Part shown: positions 720-40,412 of the stretch, one piece after another | How positions within the stretch are numbered: the stretch's first letter is position 1 | Layout of the letters: the number at the start of each line of letters is the position of its first letter | From: Candidatus Woesearchaeota archaeon | GTDB lineage: Archaea; Nanobdellota; Nanobdellia; SCGC-AAA011-G17; CAYFGV01 | DNA length: 40,429 nucleotides | NCBI GenBank assembly: GCA_964342845.1 | Contig: CAYFGV010000005.1 | Location: forward strand, 1-40,429 | Direction of reading: 5' to 3' | Position numbers and translations under genes: made by a program | The notes under the pieces: generated by a model | Database searches by the model: none | Seen by the model: the letters and a program-made list of their open reading frames with translations, nothing else | What the model was told of the DNA's origin: nothing

Positions 720-815
720 CGCCACGACCCGGATTTGAACCGGGATGCCCCGAAGGGCCAAGCTTGCTGTACTTAAATTCCAGGCTTGTGCCATACCAGA
801 TTAGGCGATCGTGGC
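720..815 (-). tRNA. tRNA-Ser(GGA) with 13-nt intron at 37/38 (765-777)
   Basis: Reverse complement folds as GCCACGA/TCGTGGC acceptor, CAAGC/GCTTG anticodon stem, long variable arm and GGTTCAAATCC T arm. The 20-nt anticodon loop reduces to CTGGAAA after removing TTTAAGTACAGCA (relaxed BHB, 3 of 4 helix pairs). Confidence 0.93.
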
Positions 816-1632: not shown

Positions 1633-1950
1633 GTGAAAATGAATACAATAGATAAGAAAGATCTTGAAATTTTGCTTTTTTCTAAGTTTGATCCTGGACA
1701 TAGGTTTGATGGTACCCGGGAAGAATTAAATAGAGAAGTAGGTAAGTATGTGGCTATTTTGGATATATGTGGTGCTGGTGGTAAAGGCCTTGAATTGCCT
1801 CTTGCTTATATTGCATATGGTTATGGTGAAAGATGTTTTGAGGAAAATTATGAAGTTAAATTACTTAGAAAAGACCTTGATGGTCGTTTATCTAATCTTG
1901 TTGAATCTGGTCTTTTAAAAAAGACAGAAGACAAATATTCTTTAATTTAA
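1633..1950 (+). CDS. hypothetical protein, possible winged-helix-like C-terminus
   Basis: 105-aa ORF ending RLSNLVESGLLKKTEDKYSL, which resembles a wHTH wing. Confidence 0.5.
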   Translation: MKMNTIDKKDLEILLFSKFDPGHRFDGTREELNREVGKYVAILDICGAGGKGLELPLAYIAYGYGERCFEENYEVKLLRKDLDGRLSNLVESGLLKKTEDKYSLI

Positions 1951-2826
1951 TTTTTTAAAATAATCTAAAACTTCATCAATGTTATCTAATTGATTAATGT
2001 TTTTTCTTATTTTTGTAGAGTTATAGAAATCTTTAGTTAATATGTTTAATTCTACTAAATAATGAGCTTTTGTTAAGTTATATTTTTTTACTAATTTTAG
2101 GTATTTTAAAATTAATTTTATTTTATCCGAGTTTGTTTTTTTATTTTGAATTTCTTTAAAGATTAAAGGATTTCTAGATGCATATCTGCCTATCATAATG
2201 TAGTTTGTGTAATCTTTATATTTTTTATAAGATTCTAGAGAATTTATGTCACCATTTCCTATTACAATAGGTATTGAAGTTTTTATTTTTTTGAATATTT
2301 CCCAGTCTGGTTTTTGTTTATAATTTTGAGAAGGGGTTCTTGCGTGGATTGTTAAGGCTGAGATGTTTGATTTTTCACAAGCTAAAATAACTTGTTTTAG
2401 ATTTTTAGTTATTCTTATTTTTGCTGTTATTGGTTTTTTTATGTTTGATGTCAATAGAGTTAAAATTTCTTTTATTTTTTTGGGATTTTTTAATAATGCT
2501 GAGCCTGCGTCTAATTTTACTACTTTTCTTGATGGACAGCCTAAGTTAAAATCTATTATATCAAATTCTTTTTCTATTTTTAGGGCTGCTTTTAGGATTA
2601 GGTTTGGATCTGAGCCGAAAAGTTGAACACAGGAAGGTTTTTCATTTGTTGCTTTTTTTAGCATTGTTTCTATTCTTTTATCTTTGTTTAGGATTGCATG
2701 ACAATTAACGAATTCTGTTGTAGTTAATCCTGCACCTAGTTCTCTGCATAAGTGTCTGAAAGCTACATTAGTTACTCCTTCCATTGGAGCTAGGATTGCT
2801 TTTGAAGAGAGTTTAGGGAATTTCAT
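1942..2826 (-). CDS. dus: tRNA-dihydrouridine synthase (Dus family)
   Basis: Motifs ILAPMEGVT, VQLFGSDP, DFNLGCPS, GSALL, TIHART, IGNGDI, MIGR. Confidence 0.93.
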   Translation of the reverse strand: MKFPKLSSKAILAPMEGVTNVAFRHLCRELGAGLTTTEFVNCHAILNKDKRIETMLKKATNEKPSCVQLFGSDPNLILKAALKIEKEFDIIDFNLGCPSRKVVKLDAGSALLKNPKKIKEILTLLTSNIKKPITAKIRITKNLKQVILACEKSNISALTIHARTPSQNYKQKPDWEIFKKIKTSIPIVIGNGDINSLESYKKYKDYTNYIMIGRYASRNPLIFKEIQNKKTNSDKIKLILKYLKLVKKYNLTKAHYLVELNILTKDFYNSTKIRKNINQLDNIDEVLDYFKKLN

Positions 2827-2880
2827 TAAGTGTAATTTAATTTTAAGTTATTTTAAAAGTTATGTTTTTGTTAAAAAATA

Positions 2881-3075
2881 TAGCGGGAGAAGGAATTTCC
2901 GAAAGAAACAATAAGTTTCATTCATTTGAACCTCCGACCTATACCCAAGCAAATATCTTATGATATTACACTCTCCGGGTGTCCCGAAGACAATTAGGAT
3001 CTTCTATGAGCCTTTCGCAATTATCAGATATTTTCTAATAATATCGACGAGCACTCCTAACTGCTCCATCCCGCT
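2881..3075 (-). tRNA. initiator tRNA-Met(CAT) with four introns: 29/30 (3013-3044), 37/38 (2981-3004), 43/44 (2941-2974), 59/60 (2895-2924)
   Basis: Removing 32+24+34+30 nt gives a 75-nt cloverleaf AGCGGGA-TG-GAGC-AGTTAGGAGT-GCTC-G-TCGGG-CTCATAA-CCCGG-AGGTC-GGAGG-TTCAAAT-CCTTC-TCCCGCT-A. It has the A1-U72 pair and three G-C anticodon-stem pairs of initiators, and each intron forms a BHB-like motif. Confidence 0.92.
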
Positions 3076-3115
3076 ATGTGTTTAAAGAAAAAGTAGGAGT
3101 TTTTAAAGATTTTGT

Positions 3116-4915
3116 TTATTCGACTGTAACAGCTTTTGCTAAATTTTTTGGAAGATCAGGGTTATGTCCTTTTAAAACAGTTGTATAGTAAGCTAATAAT
3201 TGTAAAGGAATAACATTTACTATTGGATTTAAAATGTCTGGAGATTCTGGAACTCTTAGAACATAATCAGAAATTTTTTCTATTTCTTTGTCATTATGGT
3301 TGGCTACTGTTATTATTAATCCTTTTCTAGCTTTAACTTCTTGCATGTTGCTTATTATTTTTTCATAGATTGGGTCGTTTTTGTTTGCTATAAAGACTAC
3401 CGGCATATTTTCATCTATTAATGCTATTGGTCCGTGTTTCATTTCTGCTGCTGGATAACCTTCTGCGTGAATATATGAGATTTCTTTTAATTTTAATGCG
3501 CCTTCTAAAGCAACGGGAAAATTTACTCCTCTTCCTAAGAATAAGGCATTCTTTTTATTATAAATTTTTTCTGCTATTTTCTTAACTTGTTTTTTTTGTT
3601 TTAAAGTTTCTTTAACATATTCTGGGATTTTTTTGGTTTCTTCCGTTAAATATTCATAAGTTTTAAGATCAATTTTATTTAGTTTTCTTGCTAAATATAA
3701 GGTTAGTAGAATTAAACAAGCTACTTGACCTGTGAATGCTTTTGTTGAGGCAACACCTATTTCTGGGCCTGCATGGATAAAAATACCTGAGTCAACTTTT
3801 CTTGAGATTGTTGAACCAACTACATTAACTATTCCTAAAGTTGTGCAAAATTTTTTAGCATATTCTAGTGAGGCCAATGTGTCTGCTGTTTCTCCTGATT
3901 GGCTTATTACTATGATTAAATCATTTTCTGTTAGAACTGGGTTTCTGTATCTGAATTCCGAGGCATAATCAACTTCTACTGGGATTTTGCAATACTTTTC
4001 TATTATGTATTTTCCTATAAGGGCGGCATGCCAAGCAGTTCCACAGGCTGTGATTATTATTCTGTTTATTTTCTCTGGGAGTTTTATAGAAAGTCTGATG
4101 TCTTTGTCTATTCTTCCTGCTATTCTGTTGTTTAGGGTTTCTGCTTGTTCAAATATTTCTTTTTCCATGAAATAATCGAAATCGTTTTTTTCTATGGAAT
4201 CTAATTCCCAGTGAATATGCTTTATTTCTCTTTTGACTGTATCTCCGTTTAGTTTTGTTATTTTGTAACTGTCTTTTGTTAATGTTGCTATTTCATTATC
4301 TTCGAGATAGACTGCTTTTTTTGTGTGTTTTAGAAAAGCTGATGTATCTGAAGCTATAAATTTTTCATTTTCTCCTATACCTATAATCAAGGGACTTCCT
4401 TTTTTTGCTCCTATAATTTTGTTTTCTTTTTTGGAGATGATTACTAAACCATAAGTTCCTATTACTCTTTTTAGTGTATTTTTAACTGCTTGTTCTATGT
4501 TGTTTGTATAGTTTTCTTCTATTAGATGTGCTATTACCTCTGAATCTGTTTCTGATTTGAATATGTGTCCTTTTTCTATTAATTGTTTTTTTAAAGTGGA
4601 GAAGTTTTCTATTATTCCGTTGTGGACAATAGTTATTTCTTGTTTACAATCTGTGTGTGGATGGGCGTTTATTTTGTTTGGTTCTCCATGTGTTGCCCAA
4701 CGAGTGTGAGCTATTCCTAAATTTCCTTGTTTAATTTCTTTAAATGAATTTTGTAGTTGTGATATCTTTCCTGCACTTTTTATTATTTCTAATTTATTTT
4801 CTGAAGAAATACAAATTCCTGCTGAGTCATAACCTCTGTATTCTAATCTTTTGAGGCCTTCAATTAGAATGTTAGTTGTGTCTCTGTTTCCGATATAACC
4901 TATAATGCCACACAT
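3116..4915 (-). CDS. glmS: glutamine--fructose-6-phosphate aminotransferase
   Basis: MCGIIG N-terminus, RGYDSAG, HTRWATHG, SQSGETAD, EMKHGP, C-terminal PKNLAKAVTVE. Confidence 0.98.
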   Translation of the reverse strand: MCGIIGYIGNRDTTNILIEGLKRLEYRGYDSAGICISSENKLEIIKSAGKISQLQNSFKEIKQGNLGIAHTRWATHGEPNKINAHPHTDCKQEITIVHNGIIENFSTLKKQLIEKGHIFKSETDSEVIAHLIEENYTNNIEQAVKNTLKRVIGTYGLVIISKKENKIIGAKKGSPLIIGIGENEKFIASDTSAFLKHTKKAVYLEDNEIATLTKDSYKITKLNGDTVKREIKHIHWELDSIEKNDFDYFMEKEIFEQAETLNNRIAGRIDKDIRLSIKLPEKINRIIITACGTAWHAALIGKYIIEKYCKIPVEVDYASEFRYRNPVLTENDLIIVISQSGETADTLASLEYAKKFCTTLGIVNVVGSTISRKVDSGIFIHAGPEIGVASTKAFTGQVACLILLTLYLARKLNKIDLKTYEYLTEETKKIPEYVKETLKQKKQVKKIAEKIYNKKNALFLGRGVNFPVALEGALKLKEISYIHAEGYPAAEMKHGPIALIDENMPVVFIANKNDPIYEKIISNMQEVKARKGLIITVANHNDKEIEKISDYVLRVPESPDILNPIVNVIPLQLLAYYTTVLKGHNPDLPKNLAKAVTVE

Positions 4916-21113: not shown

Positions 21114-21866
21114 ATGGTTCATAAAAAAAGAGGAGAAATAATAAGACTTATTGAAAACGATGTTTCTATACCAAAAATTTCAAAAAGACTAAATGTTGGA
21201 AAATCGACTATATATTATCATTATAAAAAAATAAAAGGTAGAAAATATCAGAAGGCGAGAATACCTGAAGATGATGAAGTTTTAGGAGAATTTTTGGGTA
21301 TATTTGCTGGAGACGGGAGTTTTATTTTTGAAAAAAAATATAGCCACTATAAAATATCAATCTCTCTTCATGCAGTTGATGATAAAGATTATGCAGAGTA
21401 TATAAGGGGTTTAATTAGGAAAAACTTTAATAAAATTGCAAGACAATATGTTAGAAGCAATATAAATTCTTTAACTATTGAATTTTATTCAAAAGATATA
21501 TATGGGATGATAAAAGAATATTTGAATATATATCCAAATAAAACCTATGACGTTCATATAAAAAGGCAGTTAGATTCGTTATCTGATAAATTTCTAATCT
21601 CTTTTACGAGAGGGATAGTTGATACGGATGGTTGTCATAAGAAGGACGGCCGTATAGTTTTGTGTCTTACGTCGAAAGAAATGATAAATCAAGTTTCTCT
21701 AATTCTTAAAAACTTTGAGATTGGTAATAAAGTATATATTAGGAGAAAGAAATTACCTTCTAGGACTCAATACGAATTAACCATACCTAAAAGATATGTA
21801 AATAGGTATATCTCTTATATTGGATTTTCTAATAAAAGAAAATTAAATGCGCGAGCCGAGATTTGA
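21114..21866 (+). CDS. free-standing HTH plus double-motif LAGLIDADG endonuclease
   Basis: N-terminal HTH (SIPKISKRLNVGKSTIYYH); motifs EFLGIFAGDGS and FTRGIVDTDGC. The stop codon lies in the antisense of the tRNA-Gly T loop. Confidence 0.9.
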   Translation: MVHKKRGEIIRLIENDVSIPKISKRLNVGKSTIYYHYKKIKGRKYQKARIPEDDEVLGEFLGIFAGDGSFIFEKKYSHYKISISLHAVDDKDYAEYIRGLIRKNFNKIARQYVRSNINSLTIEFYSKDIYGMIKEYLNIYPNKTYDVHIKRQLDSLSDKFLISFTRGIVDTDGCHKKDGRIVLCLTSKEMINQVSLILKNFEIGNKVYIRRKKLPSRTQYELTIPKRYVNRYISYIGFSNKRKLNARAEI

Positions 21867-21940
21867 ATTCCCGATCTTTTAAAAGATTCTCGGGTCACAA
21901 GATTGGCAACCTTGTATTCTAACCACTGAACTACTCACGC
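21848..21940 (-). tRNA. tRNA-Gly(GCC) with 21-nt intron at 53/54 (21868-21888)
   Basis: GCGTGAG...CAAGG-TTGCCAA-TCTTG-TGAC-CCGAG[AATCTTTTAAAAGATCGGGAA]TTCAAAT-CTCGG-CTCGCGC-A. BHB central helix CCCG/CGGG is perfect; inner helix ATCTTT/AAAGAT. Confidence 0.93.
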
Positions 21941-26156: not shown

Positions 26157-27353
26157 ATGGAAATTCTCAAAGAGATCAAACCAAGCAAAATAGAAGAAGC
26201 AAAAATAAAGAAGATTGTTAAAGATTTTTTAGATAGGTTAAATAGGCGTTTGGATAAAGCTAAAGCTATTGCAGGTGGTTCTTATGCTAAAGGGACTTGG
26301 TTAAAAGGAGAACATGACATTGATATTTTTGTTAGATTTAAAGAAGACGAGGATAGTTCTAAGAAATTAAAACTTGCTTTAAAAAAAGGTTTTAAACAAG
26401 TTAAAGAACTTTATGGTTCTAGACATTATTTTCAAGTTAGGTTTAAAGATATAGATTTTGAGGTGGTTCCTGTTTTAGAAATAAAGAAGGCTGAAGAAGC
26501 TATCAATGTTACTGATGTTAGTTTTTTACATGTCGAGTATGTTAAAAAAGCAAGTGCTAAATTGAAAGATGAAATAAGATTAGTTAAAAAGTTTTGTAAG
26601 GCTAATGAATTATATGGTGCTGAGACACATATTAAAGGTTTTTCAGGATATGTTTTAGAAATTCTAGTGATTTATTATGGTGGTTTTGAAAAGTTTATTA
26701 AATGGGTTTCTGATTGGGGAGATAAAGTTATAATAGATCCTGCTAAGTTTTATAAAGGTAAAAATGAGATTTTAAAAAGTTTGAATGTTTCTAAAAGAAA
26801 AGGGCCTTTGATTTTAATAGATCCTGTGCAGAAAGAAAGAAATGCATCTGCTGCAGTTAATAAAGAGAAGTTTTTGAAGTTGAAAGAATTATGTAAAATT
26901 TATGATGGTGATAAGAGTTTTTTTATTAAGAAAGAATTTAATTTAGAAATGTTGAGAGATTATTTTGTATTTGAAATTAATCCTTTAACTGGACGTAAGG
27001 ATGTTGTTGGTGGTAAATTGTTAAAGGCTTTTGAATATATGAAGAGAAGTTTGGATAAAAGAGGTTTTCATGTTTTGGATTCAGGATGGCATTGGAATAA
27101 AAGAGCTTATTTTTGGTTTAAATGTTTAGAAGTGTTGCCTGAGAAAGAAGTTCATTATGGTCCTTTTGTTAAAGATGGTGATAATGTTGAAAGGTTTAAA
27201 GAGAAGTGGAAAGGTTATAGATTATGTAAAGGAAAAGAAAGAGTTTATGTTGTTAAGGAGAGGGCTTTCTTTGATGTTGAAAAATATTTTGAGGCTTTGC
27301 TTAAGAGTGTGAATGTGAAACAAAAAGTAAGATTTATAAAGAAAGTTAGATAA
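26157..27353 (+). CDS. cca: archaeal class I CCA-adding enzyme
   Basis: GGSYAKGTWLKGEHDIDIF, YGAE, GFSGYVLE, LIDPVQKERNAS. Confidence 0.95.
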   Translation: MEILKEIKPSKIEEAKIKKIVKDFLDRLNRRLDKAKAIAGGSYAKGTWLKGEHDIDIFVRFKEDEDSSKKLKLALKKGFKQVKELYGSRHYFQVRFKDIDFEVVPVLEIKKAEEAINVTDVSFLHVEYVKKASAKLKDEIRLVKKFCKANELYGAETHIKGFSGYVLEILVIYYGGFEKFIKWVSDWGDKVIIDPAKFYKGKNEILKSLNVSKRKGPLILIDPVQKERNASAAVNKEKFLKLKELCKIYDGDKSFFIKKEFNLEMLRDYFVFEINPLTGRKDVVGGKLLKAFEYMKRSLDKRGFHVLDSGWHWNKRAYFWFKCLEVLPEKEVHYGPFVKDGDNVERFKEKWKGYRLCKGKERVYVVKERAFFDVEKYFEALLKSVNVKQKVRFIKKVR

Positions 27354-40290: not shown

Positions 40291-40412
40291 TCCCTGTGGC
40301 CGGATTTGAACCAGCGACCTCTCGGGATCAGCTGACTATTTTTCATGTATAGCTAAGTAGCCTTATCAAATAGCATCTACAGCCGAATGCTCCACCGTTG
40401 AGCTACACAGGG
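40291..40412 (-). tRNA. tRNA-Tyr(GTA) with a 50-nt anticodon-loop intron (about 40327-40376)
   Basis: CCCTGTG/CACAGGG acceptor (C1-G72), TTCGG-CTGTAG...CCGAG anticodon arm, GCTGG-TTCAAAT-CCGGC T arm. Exact intron boundary (37/38 or 38/39) uncertain. Confidence 0.92.

What the first reader, a model, noticed from the sequence alone, without database searches (positions are those of the whole stretch)
2881..3075. Initiator tRNA-Met interrupted by four BHB introns
Seen: a 195-nt gene resolves into five exons (31, 8, 6, 16 and 14 nt) forming a clean 75-nt initiator tRNA. BHB central helices are TCGT/GCGA (29/30, 4 of 4 pairs), CTCA/CGGG (37/38, 3 of 4), ACCC/GGGT (43/44, 4 of 4) and TTCA/GGAA (59/60, 3 of 4), each with an inner hairpin. 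Known: multi-intron archaeal tRNAs occur in Thermoproteales and ARMAN lineages; the maximum I recall is three per tRNA. Inference: four may be undescribed, and standard tRNA scanners may miss the gene.
Basis: partly seen in the sequence, partly recalled or inferred. Interest (0 to 1): 0.9.

Follow-up and report, generated by a model that had tools for sequence, protein, structure and literature searches.

The report
Initiator tRNA gene with four introns
This is a real gene for the start-codon (initiator) methionine tRNA of a tiny marine archaeon, cut into five pieces by four short enzyme-spliced introns, one more than reviews give as the maximum, and standard tRNA finders miss it.

Summary
On the minus strand, 3075..2881, five exons (31, 8, 6, 16, 14 nt) join into a 75-nt cloverleaf tRNA-Met(CAU). 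It has the archaeal initiator marks A1:U72 and three G:C pairs at 29-31:39-41. The joined product is 75/75 identical to an intronless initiator gene in another family of the same order. An intron-aware profile scan of the whole 573-kb assembly finds no other copy (score 101 against 29.5 for the next best).

In 84 related genomes examined, a non-random sample, this gene carries 0 to 5 introns. Of their 127 introns, 88 have a fully paired 4-bp central helix, against 2.4% by chance, and the pairs change in compensating fashion.

The genome encodes one splicing endonuclease (176 aa, alpha type) and a CCA-adding enzyme. The ligase RtcB is not in the 85%-complete assembly. No RNA data exist.

The papers I read give three introns as the archaeal maximum. 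This scan has already noted four-intron initiator genes in other genomes. Verdict: real, a new extreme of a known kind, moderately interesting.

The parts
2881..3075 (-). Whole initiator tRNA-Met(CAU) gene (precursor, 195 nt)
   Evidence: The intron-aware profile scores 101.1 here against 29.5 for the next best window in the genome.
3045..3075 (-). Exon 1 (31 nt): acceptor 5' strand, D-arm, tRNA positions 1-29
   Evidence: Conserved in relatives.
3013..3044 (-). Intron 1 (32 nt) at 29/30. BHB central helix TCGT/GCGA, 4/4; bulges CGA and AAG; inner hairpin.
   Evidence: The same site is occupied in 22 parsed relatives, with covarying helix pairs TA/TG/CG.
3005..3012 (-). Exon 2 (8 nt micro-exon): positions 30-37, holds the CAU anticodon
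2981..3004 (-). Intron 2 (24 nt) at the canonical 37/38 site. Central helix CTCA/CGGG, 3/4 (relaxed); bulges TAG and ACA; 5-bp inner hairpin.
   Evidence: The site is occupied in 27 parsed relatives. It has the highest modelled cost to form: 8.7-14.3 kcal/mol.
2975..2980 (-). Exon 3 (6 nt micro-exon): positions 38-43
2941..2974 (-). Intron 3 (34 nt) at 43/44. Central helix ACCC/GGGT, 4/4; bulges GGA and ATA; 5-bp inner helix.
   Evidence: The boundary was chosen among equivalent slides by the BHB rule. It has the lowest modelled cost: 0.7-1.7 kcal/mol. The site is occupied in 11 parsed relatives.
2925..2940 (-). Exon 4 (16 nt): variable loop, T-stem 5' strand, T-loop to position 59
2895..2924 (-). 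Intron 4 (30 nt) at 59/60 in the T-loop. Central helix TTCA/GGAA, 3/4; the outer helix is the 5-bp T-stem; inner hairpin.
   Evidence: The T-stem and the inner hairpin both appear in the unconstrained minimum-energy fold. The same site is used in 3 other genomes (L003, L016, L056).
2881..2894 (-). Exon 5 (14 nt): position 60, T-stem and acceptor 3' strands, discriminator A73. No encoded CCA.
2873..2878 (-). Run of six T, two bases after the discriminator: likely transcription stop (inference)
   Evidence: Read. That archaeal RNA polymerase terminates at oligo-T is general knowledge. Not tested.
3100..3107 (-). TTTAAAAA box 25-32 nt upstream of the mature 5' end: possible TATA box. Weak evidence, since the genome is 30% G+C.
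   Evidence: Read; G+C. Not tested.
26568..26915 (+). Match to the archaeal CCA-adding enzyme domain (within a 399-aa frame). The enzyme is needed because the gene encodes no CCA.
   Evidence: PF09249, E 7.9e-33.

Best explanation
The locus is the functional, and in this assembly the only, initiator tRNA-Met gene of a small (about 0.6 Mb, 30% G+C) marine archaeon.

Proposed pathway:
1. The gene is transcribed as a precursor of about 195 nt.
2. The tRNA splicing endonuclease (EndA) cuts in the two 3-nt bulges of a BHB motif at each of the four introns.
3. An RNA ligase joins the five exons (31, 8, 6, 16, 14 nt).
4. The CCA-adding enzyme completes the 3' end.

The BHB of intron 3 uses bases 38-41, and that of intron 1 uses bases 24-27. 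These compete with the anticodon stem and the D-stem of the final cloverleaf, so the four motifs cannot all coexist with it. Removal must therefore go through refolding steps. Modelling suggests introns 3 and 4 go first and intron 2 last.

Shown: the exon and intron anatomy, the BHB geometry, conservation and covariation across relatives, and the presence of EndA and the CCA enzyme. Inferred: transcription, actual cleavage and ligation, the order of removal, and the ligase.
For: (1) The joined exons fold as tRNA-Met(cat) over [1,75], with A1:U72 and three G:C pairs at 29-31:39-41.

(2) The joined exons are 75/75 identical to the intronless initiator gene in L024 (G204, another family). They are 72/75 identical to that of G001, the same family. 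All five exons are thus kept intact while the introns differ.

(3) Whole-assembly checks find no second copy. The intron-aware profile scores 101.1 here and 29.5 at the next best of 5,650 windows. Motif searches find no other initiator 5' end followed by a D-arm. ARAGORN with introns allowed finds 18 tRNAs, none of them Met.

(4) The BHB geometry is as stated.

(5) In 84 genomes of the order, 127 introns were parsed in this gene. Of these, 88 have 4/4 and 27 have 3/4 central pairs, against 2.4% and 14% by chance. All 87 joined products were called by ARAGORN, 86 as tRNA-Met.

(6) There are compensatory changes in the central helices. At 53/54, pair 3 is G:C 8, U:A 6, A:U 2, C:G 1. At 37/38, pair 2 is U:A 16 against C:G 8, following U33/C33. 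At 29/30, pair 1 is C:G 14, U:A 6, U:G 2.

(7) The precursor is strongly structured: MFE -68.5 kcal/mol, z = -5.2, and 0 of 200 shuffles fold as well. The acceptor stem, the T-stem and the intron hairpins are all formed.

(8) There is one EndA gene of 176 aa with both N- and C-terminal domains. It aligns over its catalytic region with the M. jannaschii and N. equitans enzymes, and Y112, H122 and K153 sit opposite their conserved Y, H and K.

(9) A contig from another sample and study covers 2757-3030 with 1 differing letter. That spans exons 5 to 2, introns 4 to 2 and part of intron 1.
Against: There is no RNA evidence: no listed run holding this DNA is RNA.

RtcB and its activator archease are not found in the assembly. 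The syntenic slot that holds them in the sister genome G001 is occupied by other genes here. The ligation step therefore rests on the missing 15% of the genome, although 38 of 40 relatives do have RtcB.

Two central helices have a mismatch. Outer helices in the primary transcript are short: 2, 2, 1 and 5 bp. Forcing the intron 2 BHB costs 8.7-14.3 kcal/mol in the model. The unconstrained minimum-energy fold pairs intron 1 in a register other than the BHB.

The only EndA is of the single-gene alpha type, which earlier work regarded as strict for canonical BHBs (PMC5829648, passages).
Confidence: 0.93

Rival explanations
1. The locus is a decaying, non-functional copy. The working initiator tRNA gene lies in the roughly 15% of the genome that was not assembled.
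For: The assembly is 84.8% complete in 28 contigs. RtcB and archease are also missing from it. No RNA data exist.
Against: All 75 exon bases equal those of an intronless ortholog in another family, while the introns have diverged. All four BHB motifs are intact. Nine other genomes in eight families in all (f1, f7, f16, f17, f20, f23, f26, f28) keep four- or five-intron versions whose joined products are perfect cloverleaves. A relic would not hold 6-nt and 8-nt exons unchanged.
Confidence: 0.04
2. The 195-nt arrangement is an assembly artefact: a chimera of reads from related strains with different intron sets.
For: The genome is a metagenome bin. Relatives differ in intron content. The independent contig does not bridge 3031-3044.
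Against: A contig of another sample and study covers 2757-3030 continuously with one differing letter, including three introns and four exons. Intron 1 with both its flanking exons is matched at 85% over 72 nt in G060. Similar four-intron architectures occur in independently assembled genomes.
Confidence: 0.01
3. The gene is functional, but the processing differs from four independent standard EndA cuts. For example, intron 2, with its mismatched helix, may be recognised only after other introns are removed. It may need a helper. Or some boundaries may lie a base or two from where the BHB rule puts them.
For: Intron 2 has 3/4 central pairs, and its first base can instead extend the inner hairpin (read). 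Its BHB is the most costly to form in every intermediate. In 6 of 27 relatives the pair next to the 5' bulge at this site is also a mismatch. Nested, ordered removal is described for other archaea (tRNAscan-SE 2.0 paper, passage).
Against: The joined product is fixed by the intronless orthologs, so any alternative must give the same 75 nt. Boundary slides that keep the product were tested, and the BHB register was the best for each intron.
Confidence: 0.1

Closest known systems
Multiple-intron tRNA genes of Thermoproteales, e.g. Pyrobaculum calidifontis tRNA-Glu(UUC) and P. islandicum tRNA-Pro(UGG), each with three introns (Kanai 2015, PMC4390854, passages; tRNAscan-SE 2.0, PMC8450103, passages)
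   Same: Several short BHB introns at canonical and non-canonical positions of one tRNA gene. They are removed by EndA. Some motifs can form only after another intron is gone. The genes are missed by ordinary scanners.
   Different: Here there are four introns (five in relative G016), against a stated maximum of three. The exons are as short as 6 and 8 nt. The host is a tiny AT-rich archaeon with a single alpha-type EndA gene, not a crenarchaeon with an (alpha-beta)2 enzyme.
Disrupted tRNA genes of DPANN archaea with alpha4-type EndA (Kaneta et al. 2018, PMC5829648, passages)
   Same: That paper links alpha4-type EndAs of DPANN lineages to more disrupted tRNA genes. It says that incomplete tRNA sets there point to unidentified disrupted genes. 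This gene is one such case: an initiator tRNA invisible to scanners.
   Different: That paper reports no intron counts above the 'multiple introns' class in the passages I saw. Whether this EndA has its 'L3' loop could not be decided. The insertion that N. equitans shows before the catalytic His in the alignment is absent here.
Intron-rich tRNA genes of Atabeyarchaeia and Freyarchaeia (Valentin-Alvarado et al. 2024, PMC11291895, passages)
   Same: 92-95% of tRNA genes carry introns, over half carry several, and many sit at non-canonical sites.
   Different: A different phylum (Asgard). The per-gene counts are in Supplementary Data 4, which I could not read, so a four-intron tRNA may already be listed there.
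Nuclear tRNA genes of the red alga Cyanidioschyzon merolae (PMC3728597, passages)
   Same: BHB introns at ectopic positions, up to three per gene. Ordered removal was shown by RT-PCR, with the more stable BHB going first.
   Different: A eukaryote, with a maximum of three introns; some of its genes are also permuted. Here the exons are collinear.

Membership tests
Archaeal initiator tRNA-Met | Cloverleaf with a CAU anticodon | tested here: met
   ARAGORN on the joined exons gives tRNA-Met(cat) [1,75].
Archaeal initiator tRNA-Met | A1:U72 pair and three consecutive G:C pairs at 29-31:39-41 (features recalled from general knowledge of archaeal and eukaryotic initiators) | tested here: met
   Seen in the cloverleaf drawing.
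Archaeal initiator tRNA-Met | Orthology to initiator tRNA genes of relatives | tested here: met
   75/75 identity to L024 and 72/75 to G001. 171 of 240 genomes of the order match the G001 gene at E <= 0.001.
Archaeal initiator tRNA-Met | Charged with methionine and used for initiation | not testable with these tools
   Needs biochemistry.
BHB (enzyme-spliced) archaeal tRNA intron | 4-bp central helix flanked by two 3-nt bulges on opposite strands, with the cuts inside the bulges | tested here: met
   Introns 1 and 3 have 4/4 pairs; introns 2 and 4 have 3/4, a relaxed form.
BHB (enzyme-spliced) archaeal tRNA intron | Flanking helices on both sides (the strict hBHBh' form) | tested here: inconclusive
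   Inner helices run up to 9, 5, 5 and 3 bp. Outer helices are only 2, 2, 1 and 5 bp in the primary transcript. The outer helices of introns 1 to 3 depend on which other introns are already gone.
BHB (enzyme-spliced) archaeal tRNA intron | Motif kept by compensatory change in relatives | tested here: met
   115 of 127 introns have at least 3/4 central pairs, against about 17% by chance. Several Watson-Crick pair types occur at the same helix positions.
BHB (enzyme-spliced) archaeal tRNA intron | Splicing endonuclease encoded by the genome | tested here: met
   One PF01974 match at 97.2 bits, in an ORF of 176 aa with PF02778 plus PF01974.
BHB (enzyme-spliced) archaeal tRNA intron | RtcB-type ligase encoded by the genome | tested here: not met
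   No PF01139 match and no tblastn hit; archease is also absent. The assembly is 84.8% complete, and 38 of 40 relatives have RtcB, so this is most likely an assembly gap.
BHB (enzyme-spliced) archaeal tRNA intron | Introns actually removed in RNA | not testable with these tools
   No RNA run holds the stretch.
Split or permuted tRNA genes | Exons at separate loci or in permuted order | tested here: not met
   All five exons are collinear within 195 nt.

The most novel reading that the evidence does not exclude
In this order of tiny archaea the initiator tRNA gene is a hot spot of ongoing intron gain and loss. I parsed 0 to 5 introns at about nine recurrent sites, and sister genomes in one family carry 0 and 4. 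All of these are served by a single alpha-type EndA gene per genome, a class once held to accept only strict, canonical BHB motifs.

If true, subunit architecture does not limit tRNA gene fragmentation. Fragmenting the one essential initiator gene may itself be selected, for example to destroy integration sites of mobile elements or to tie translation initiation to the splicing machinery.
Probability: 0.3. Interest if true: 0.65.

Novelty: new variant of a known kind. Interest (0 to 1): 0.5.

Why it matters
Every cell needs an initiator tRNA, yet in this genome standard annotation finds none. The gene is hidden behind four introns, two of which leave exons of only 6 and 8 nt.

This matters in three ways.
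1. tRNA sets reported as incomplete for small uncultured archaea are partly a detection artefact. The same spliced-alignment approach found a four-intron tRNA-Ile in this genome.
2. The practical ceiling of 'up to three introns', stated in reviews and in the tRNAscan-SE 2.0 paper (whose intron search is iterative), is too low for these lineages: four is common here and five occurs.
3. It gives a compact natural substrate for testing how a single-gene EndA handles several closely spaced, partly relaxed and mutually exclusive BHB motifs, and in what order.

Tried and rejected
- **RNA evidence.** No RNA holder is listed. Two metatranscriptome runs from the sample of a DNA holder gave no contig on the stretch. 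This is not informative either way.
- **Naming the organism.** A scan of named genome records with the neighbouring GlmS protein returned only bacterial records at 29-51% identity. 'DPANN-like' is an inference from genome size and from earlier notes of the scan.
- **Full hidden tRNA set of the genome.**
  - A T-arm plus acceptor scan gave two further genes.
  - A BLAST panel of tRNAs from fetched loci, mostly initiator genes, gave only five short (15-21 nt) matches, none followed up.
  - A looser motif scan gave one truncated tRNA at a contig end and one doubtful 5' half.
  - No elongator tRNA-Met was found, and the set remains incomplete.
- **Orthologs of the C11 gene.** The search returned mostly generic T-arm matches. 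The identity as Ile(GAU) came from aligning to a relative's tRNA-Ile. The boundaries of its fourth intron are unresolved (1/4 central pairs).
- **Supplementary Data 4 of PMC11291895.** It was not in the readable part of the archive.
- **C/D-box guide RNA in the introns.** Only a lone CTGA in intron 1 and a weak Rfam snoRNA match (E 5.5). Rejected.
- **The 'L3' loop in EndA.** The passages I saw do not say where it lies. Left open.
- **Uncertain parses.** Twelve of the 127 introns parsed in relatives have 2/4 or fewer central pairs, mostly near positions 4-8 and in L019 and L075. Their boundaries from my aligner are probably off.

Full report
**Observation**

ARAGORN calls the joined 75 nt tRNA-Met(cat) over its full length. 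The acceptor stem is a perfect 7 bp beginning A1:U72. The D-stem has 4 bp. The anticodon stem has three G:C pairs at 29-31:39-41. The T-stem has 5 bp. ARAGORN finds nothing in the 195-nt precursor.

The ordinary tools miss the gene:
- ARAGORN on the window finds 2 tRNAs, none at this locus.
- Rfam at gathering scores finds 5 tRNAs, none at this locus.
- Rfam at E up to 10 on 2700-3300 gives three weak non-tRNA matches.

**BHB motifs**

I used the standard register: a 3-nt bulge holding each cut, and a central helix between exon bases -5..-2 and intron bases n-5..n-2.

| Intron | Site | Central helix | Paired | Inner helix | Outer helix in the primary transcript |
|---|---|---|---|---|---|
| 1 | 29/30 | TCGT/GCGA | 4/4 | up to 9 bp (small offset allowed) | 2 bp |
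| 2 | 37/38 | CTCA/CGGG | 3/4 | 5 bp | 2 bp |
| 3 | 43/44 | ACCC/GGGT | 4/4 | 5 bp | 1 bp |
| 4 | 59/60 | TTCA/GGAA | 3/4 | 3 bp contiguous | 5 bp (the T-stem) |

The boundary of intron 3 is ambiguous by sequence. The 43/44 choice is the one that gives a BHB.

**Is it more than chance?**

I built a position matrix from the nine distinct sequences among ten intronless initiator loci of relatives. I then aligned it to DNA with free introns of at least 9 nt at a fixed penalty.
- This locus scores 101.1.
- Over 5,650 windows covering both strands of all 28 contigs, the mean is -7.7 (sd 7.0).
- The next best score is 29.5, which is the tRNA-Ile gene on contig 11.
- Random genomic positions give a fully paired central helix in 2.4% of trials and 3/4 in 14%.

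**Comparative evidence**

A DNA search of 61 genomes with the locus matched 20, G000 included. A search of all 240 genomes of the order with the intronless gene of G001 matched 171 at E <= 0.001.

I examined 90 loci:
- 20 (L001 is this locus itself),
- the 30 best, mostly intronless,
- 40 hand-picked partial matches.

This is not a random sample. Three loci were dropped: two were cut by contig ends and one had no seed. That left 87 loci from 84 genomes.

| Introns in the initiator gene | 0 | 1 | 2 | 3 | 4 | 5 |
|---|---|---|---|---|---|---|
| Genomes (of 84) | 28 | 14 | 24 | 8 | 9 | 1 |

Every joined product was called by ARAGORN, 86 of 87 as tRNA-Met. The intronless gene of G204 is 75/75 identical to the joined exons of this locus. 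That of G001, the only other genome of the same family, is 72/75 identical.

The four- and five-intron genes lie in eight families: f1, f7, f16, f17, f20, f23, f26 and f28. The five-intron gene is in G016 (L003:1520-1715). Its exons are 31, 8, 6, 10, 6 and 14 nt. It shares this gene's four sites and adds one at 53/54.

Of the 127 parsed introns, 88 have 4/4 and 27 have 3/4 central pairs. The helices covary with the exon:
- At 53/54, the third pair is G:C 8, U:A 6, A:U 2, C:G 1.
- At 37/38, the second pair is U:A 16 or C:G 8, following U33 or C33 of the tRNA.
- At 29/30, the first pair is C:G 14, U:A 6, U:G 2.

Alignments of the introns at each site show fixed bulge and helix bases around inner hairpins that differ in sequence.

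**Machinery**

*Endonuclease.* The genome has one match to the EndA catalytic domain. It sits in an ORF of 176 aa that carries both the N- and C-terminal domains. Its closest solved relatives are the N. equitans catalytic subunit (E 1.1e-34) and the M. jannaschii homotetramer enzyme (E 2.3e-29). Y112, H122 and K153 sit opposite their conserved Y, H and K; that these three are the catalytic triad is recalled, and Kaneta et al. name the equivalent residues for M. kandleri. Among 40 relatives, 37 have EndA. Each has one full gene in a frame of 171-267 aa, and this includes genomes in one or two contigs. So the order appears to rely on a single alpha-type gene. A homotetramer is inferred from this.

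*Ligase.* RtcB is not in the assembly, and neither is archease, while 38 of 40 relatives have RtcB. In G001 a thioredoxin-reductase-like gene, archease and RtcB sit between two conserved flanks. In G000 the same flanks enclose a cold-shock-domain protein, an XPD-like helicase and two small ORFs. The ligase is therefore either on unassembled DNA or replaced; I cannot tell which.

*CCA addition.* The CCA-adding enzyme is in the window.

**Folding and order of removal**

The precursor is strongly structured: -68.5 kcal/mol and z = -5.2. The minimum-energy fold forms the acceptor stem, the T-stem and the intron hairpins. It does not form the BHB register of intron 1.

The modelled cost of forcing each BHB geometry, across all intermediates, is:
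- intron 3: 0.7-1.7 kcal/mol
- intron 4: 3.8-3.9 kcal/mol
- intron 1: 4.9-9.5 kcal/mol
- intron 2: 8.7-14.3 kcal/mol

The BHB of intron 3 uses bases 38-41, which in the mature tRNA pair in the anticodon stem. The BHB of intron 1 uses the last D-stem bases. Refolding between cuts is therefore required. This order is an inference.

**Assembly**

A contig from a different sample and study covers 2757-3030 with one differing letter. The gap at 3031-3044 is not bridged there.

**Context**

The gene sits in a 289-nt spacer between a dihydrouridine synthase gene and a GlmS-like gene, all on the minus strand. A T6 run follows the gene, and a TTTAAAAA box lies 25-32 nt upstream. Both are weak evidence at 30% G+C.

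**What is known**

- Kanai 2015 (passages) and the tRNAscan-SE 2.0 paper (passages) state a maximum of three introns per archaeal tRNA.
- The C. merolae paper also reports three at most (passages).
- Full-text searches found no report of an archaeal tRNA with more than three introns. These covered 'four introns', 'up to four introns' and 'five introns' together with tRNA and archaeal terms, and tRNA introns together with DPANN or Woesearchaeota.
- The library lacks most subscription papers. Supplementary Data 4 of the Atabeyarchaeia paper (228 introns in three genomes) could not be read.
- Kaneta et al. 2018 had already noted that DPANN tRNA sets are incomplete, probably because of undetected disrupted genes.
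- This scan's own earlier notes list at least eight four-intron initiator genes in other genomes. I checked their shared claim of a published maximum of three in the papers above.

**Verdict**

This is a real initiator tRNA gene with four BHB introns. The mechanism is of a known kind, but the degree of fragmentation is beyond what the papers I read describe, and it is common in this order.

Noticed in passing
G000 contig 11, 15345-15546 (+), locus L099:21-222: A second four-intron tRNA in the same genome. It is tRNA-Ile(GAU), 202 nt. The joined 76 nt is called tRNA-Ile(gat) by ARAGORN. Three introns have 3-4 of 4 central pairs. The boundaries of the fourth are unresolved.
   Followed up: partly
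L003:1520-1715 (G016, same order): Initiator tRNA gene with five introns: the four sites of this gene plus 53/54. Exons are 31, 8, 6, 10, 6 and 14 nt. The joined product is a clean tRNA-Met.
   Followed up: partly
G000 contig 6, about 25.9-29.2 kb (L114:2028-5214), against G001:C4:14.3-17.4 kb (L113): RtcB and archease are absent from the assembly. The slot that holds TrxR-like, archease and RtcB genes in the sister genome holds a cold-shock-domain protein, an XPD-like helicase and two unknown small ORFs here.
   Followed up: partly
G000 contig 7, 4748-4890 (-), locus L100: A 143-nt gene that reads by eye as tRNA-Leu(UAA) with two insertions, one in the D-loop and one at 37/38. Scanners miss it.
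   Followed up: no
window 720-815, 21848-21940, 40291-40412 (all -): Three further tRNA matches longer than a mature tRNA (96, 93 and 122 nt), so each holds an intron. ARAGORN's default run finds none of them. With introns allowed it reads 720-815 as Ala(ggc) and 40291-40412 as Tyr(gta) with a 50-nt intron.
   Followed up: no
Loci L003, L005, L017, L035, L043, L056, L059, L068-L072: Initiator tRNAs of several relatives have C instead of the near-universal U at position 33. The intron base pairing with it changes from A to G.
   Followed up: partly
L072 (G010): A 98-nt intron at 37/38 of the initiator gene, far longer than the median of 27 nt. It contains TGATGA and CTGA motifs that resemble C and D boxes.
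   Followed up: no
L091:322-1206 (-), beside EndA at L091:1258-1788 (+), G000 contig 19: A 294-aa metallo-beta-lactamase-fold protein lies directly beside EndA. It is possibly RNase Z (the name is my guess; Pfam gives only Lactamase_B_2).
   Followed up: no
Relatives G004, G007, G015, G026, G036, G040: RtcB matches are split within open frames of 879-1010 aa, about twice the usual length. This is consistent with inserted elements such as inteins.
   Followed up: no
window 1942-2826 (-): A dihydrouridine synthase (tRNA-modifying enzyme) gene lies 54 nt downstream of the tRNA gene on the same strand.
   Followed up: no
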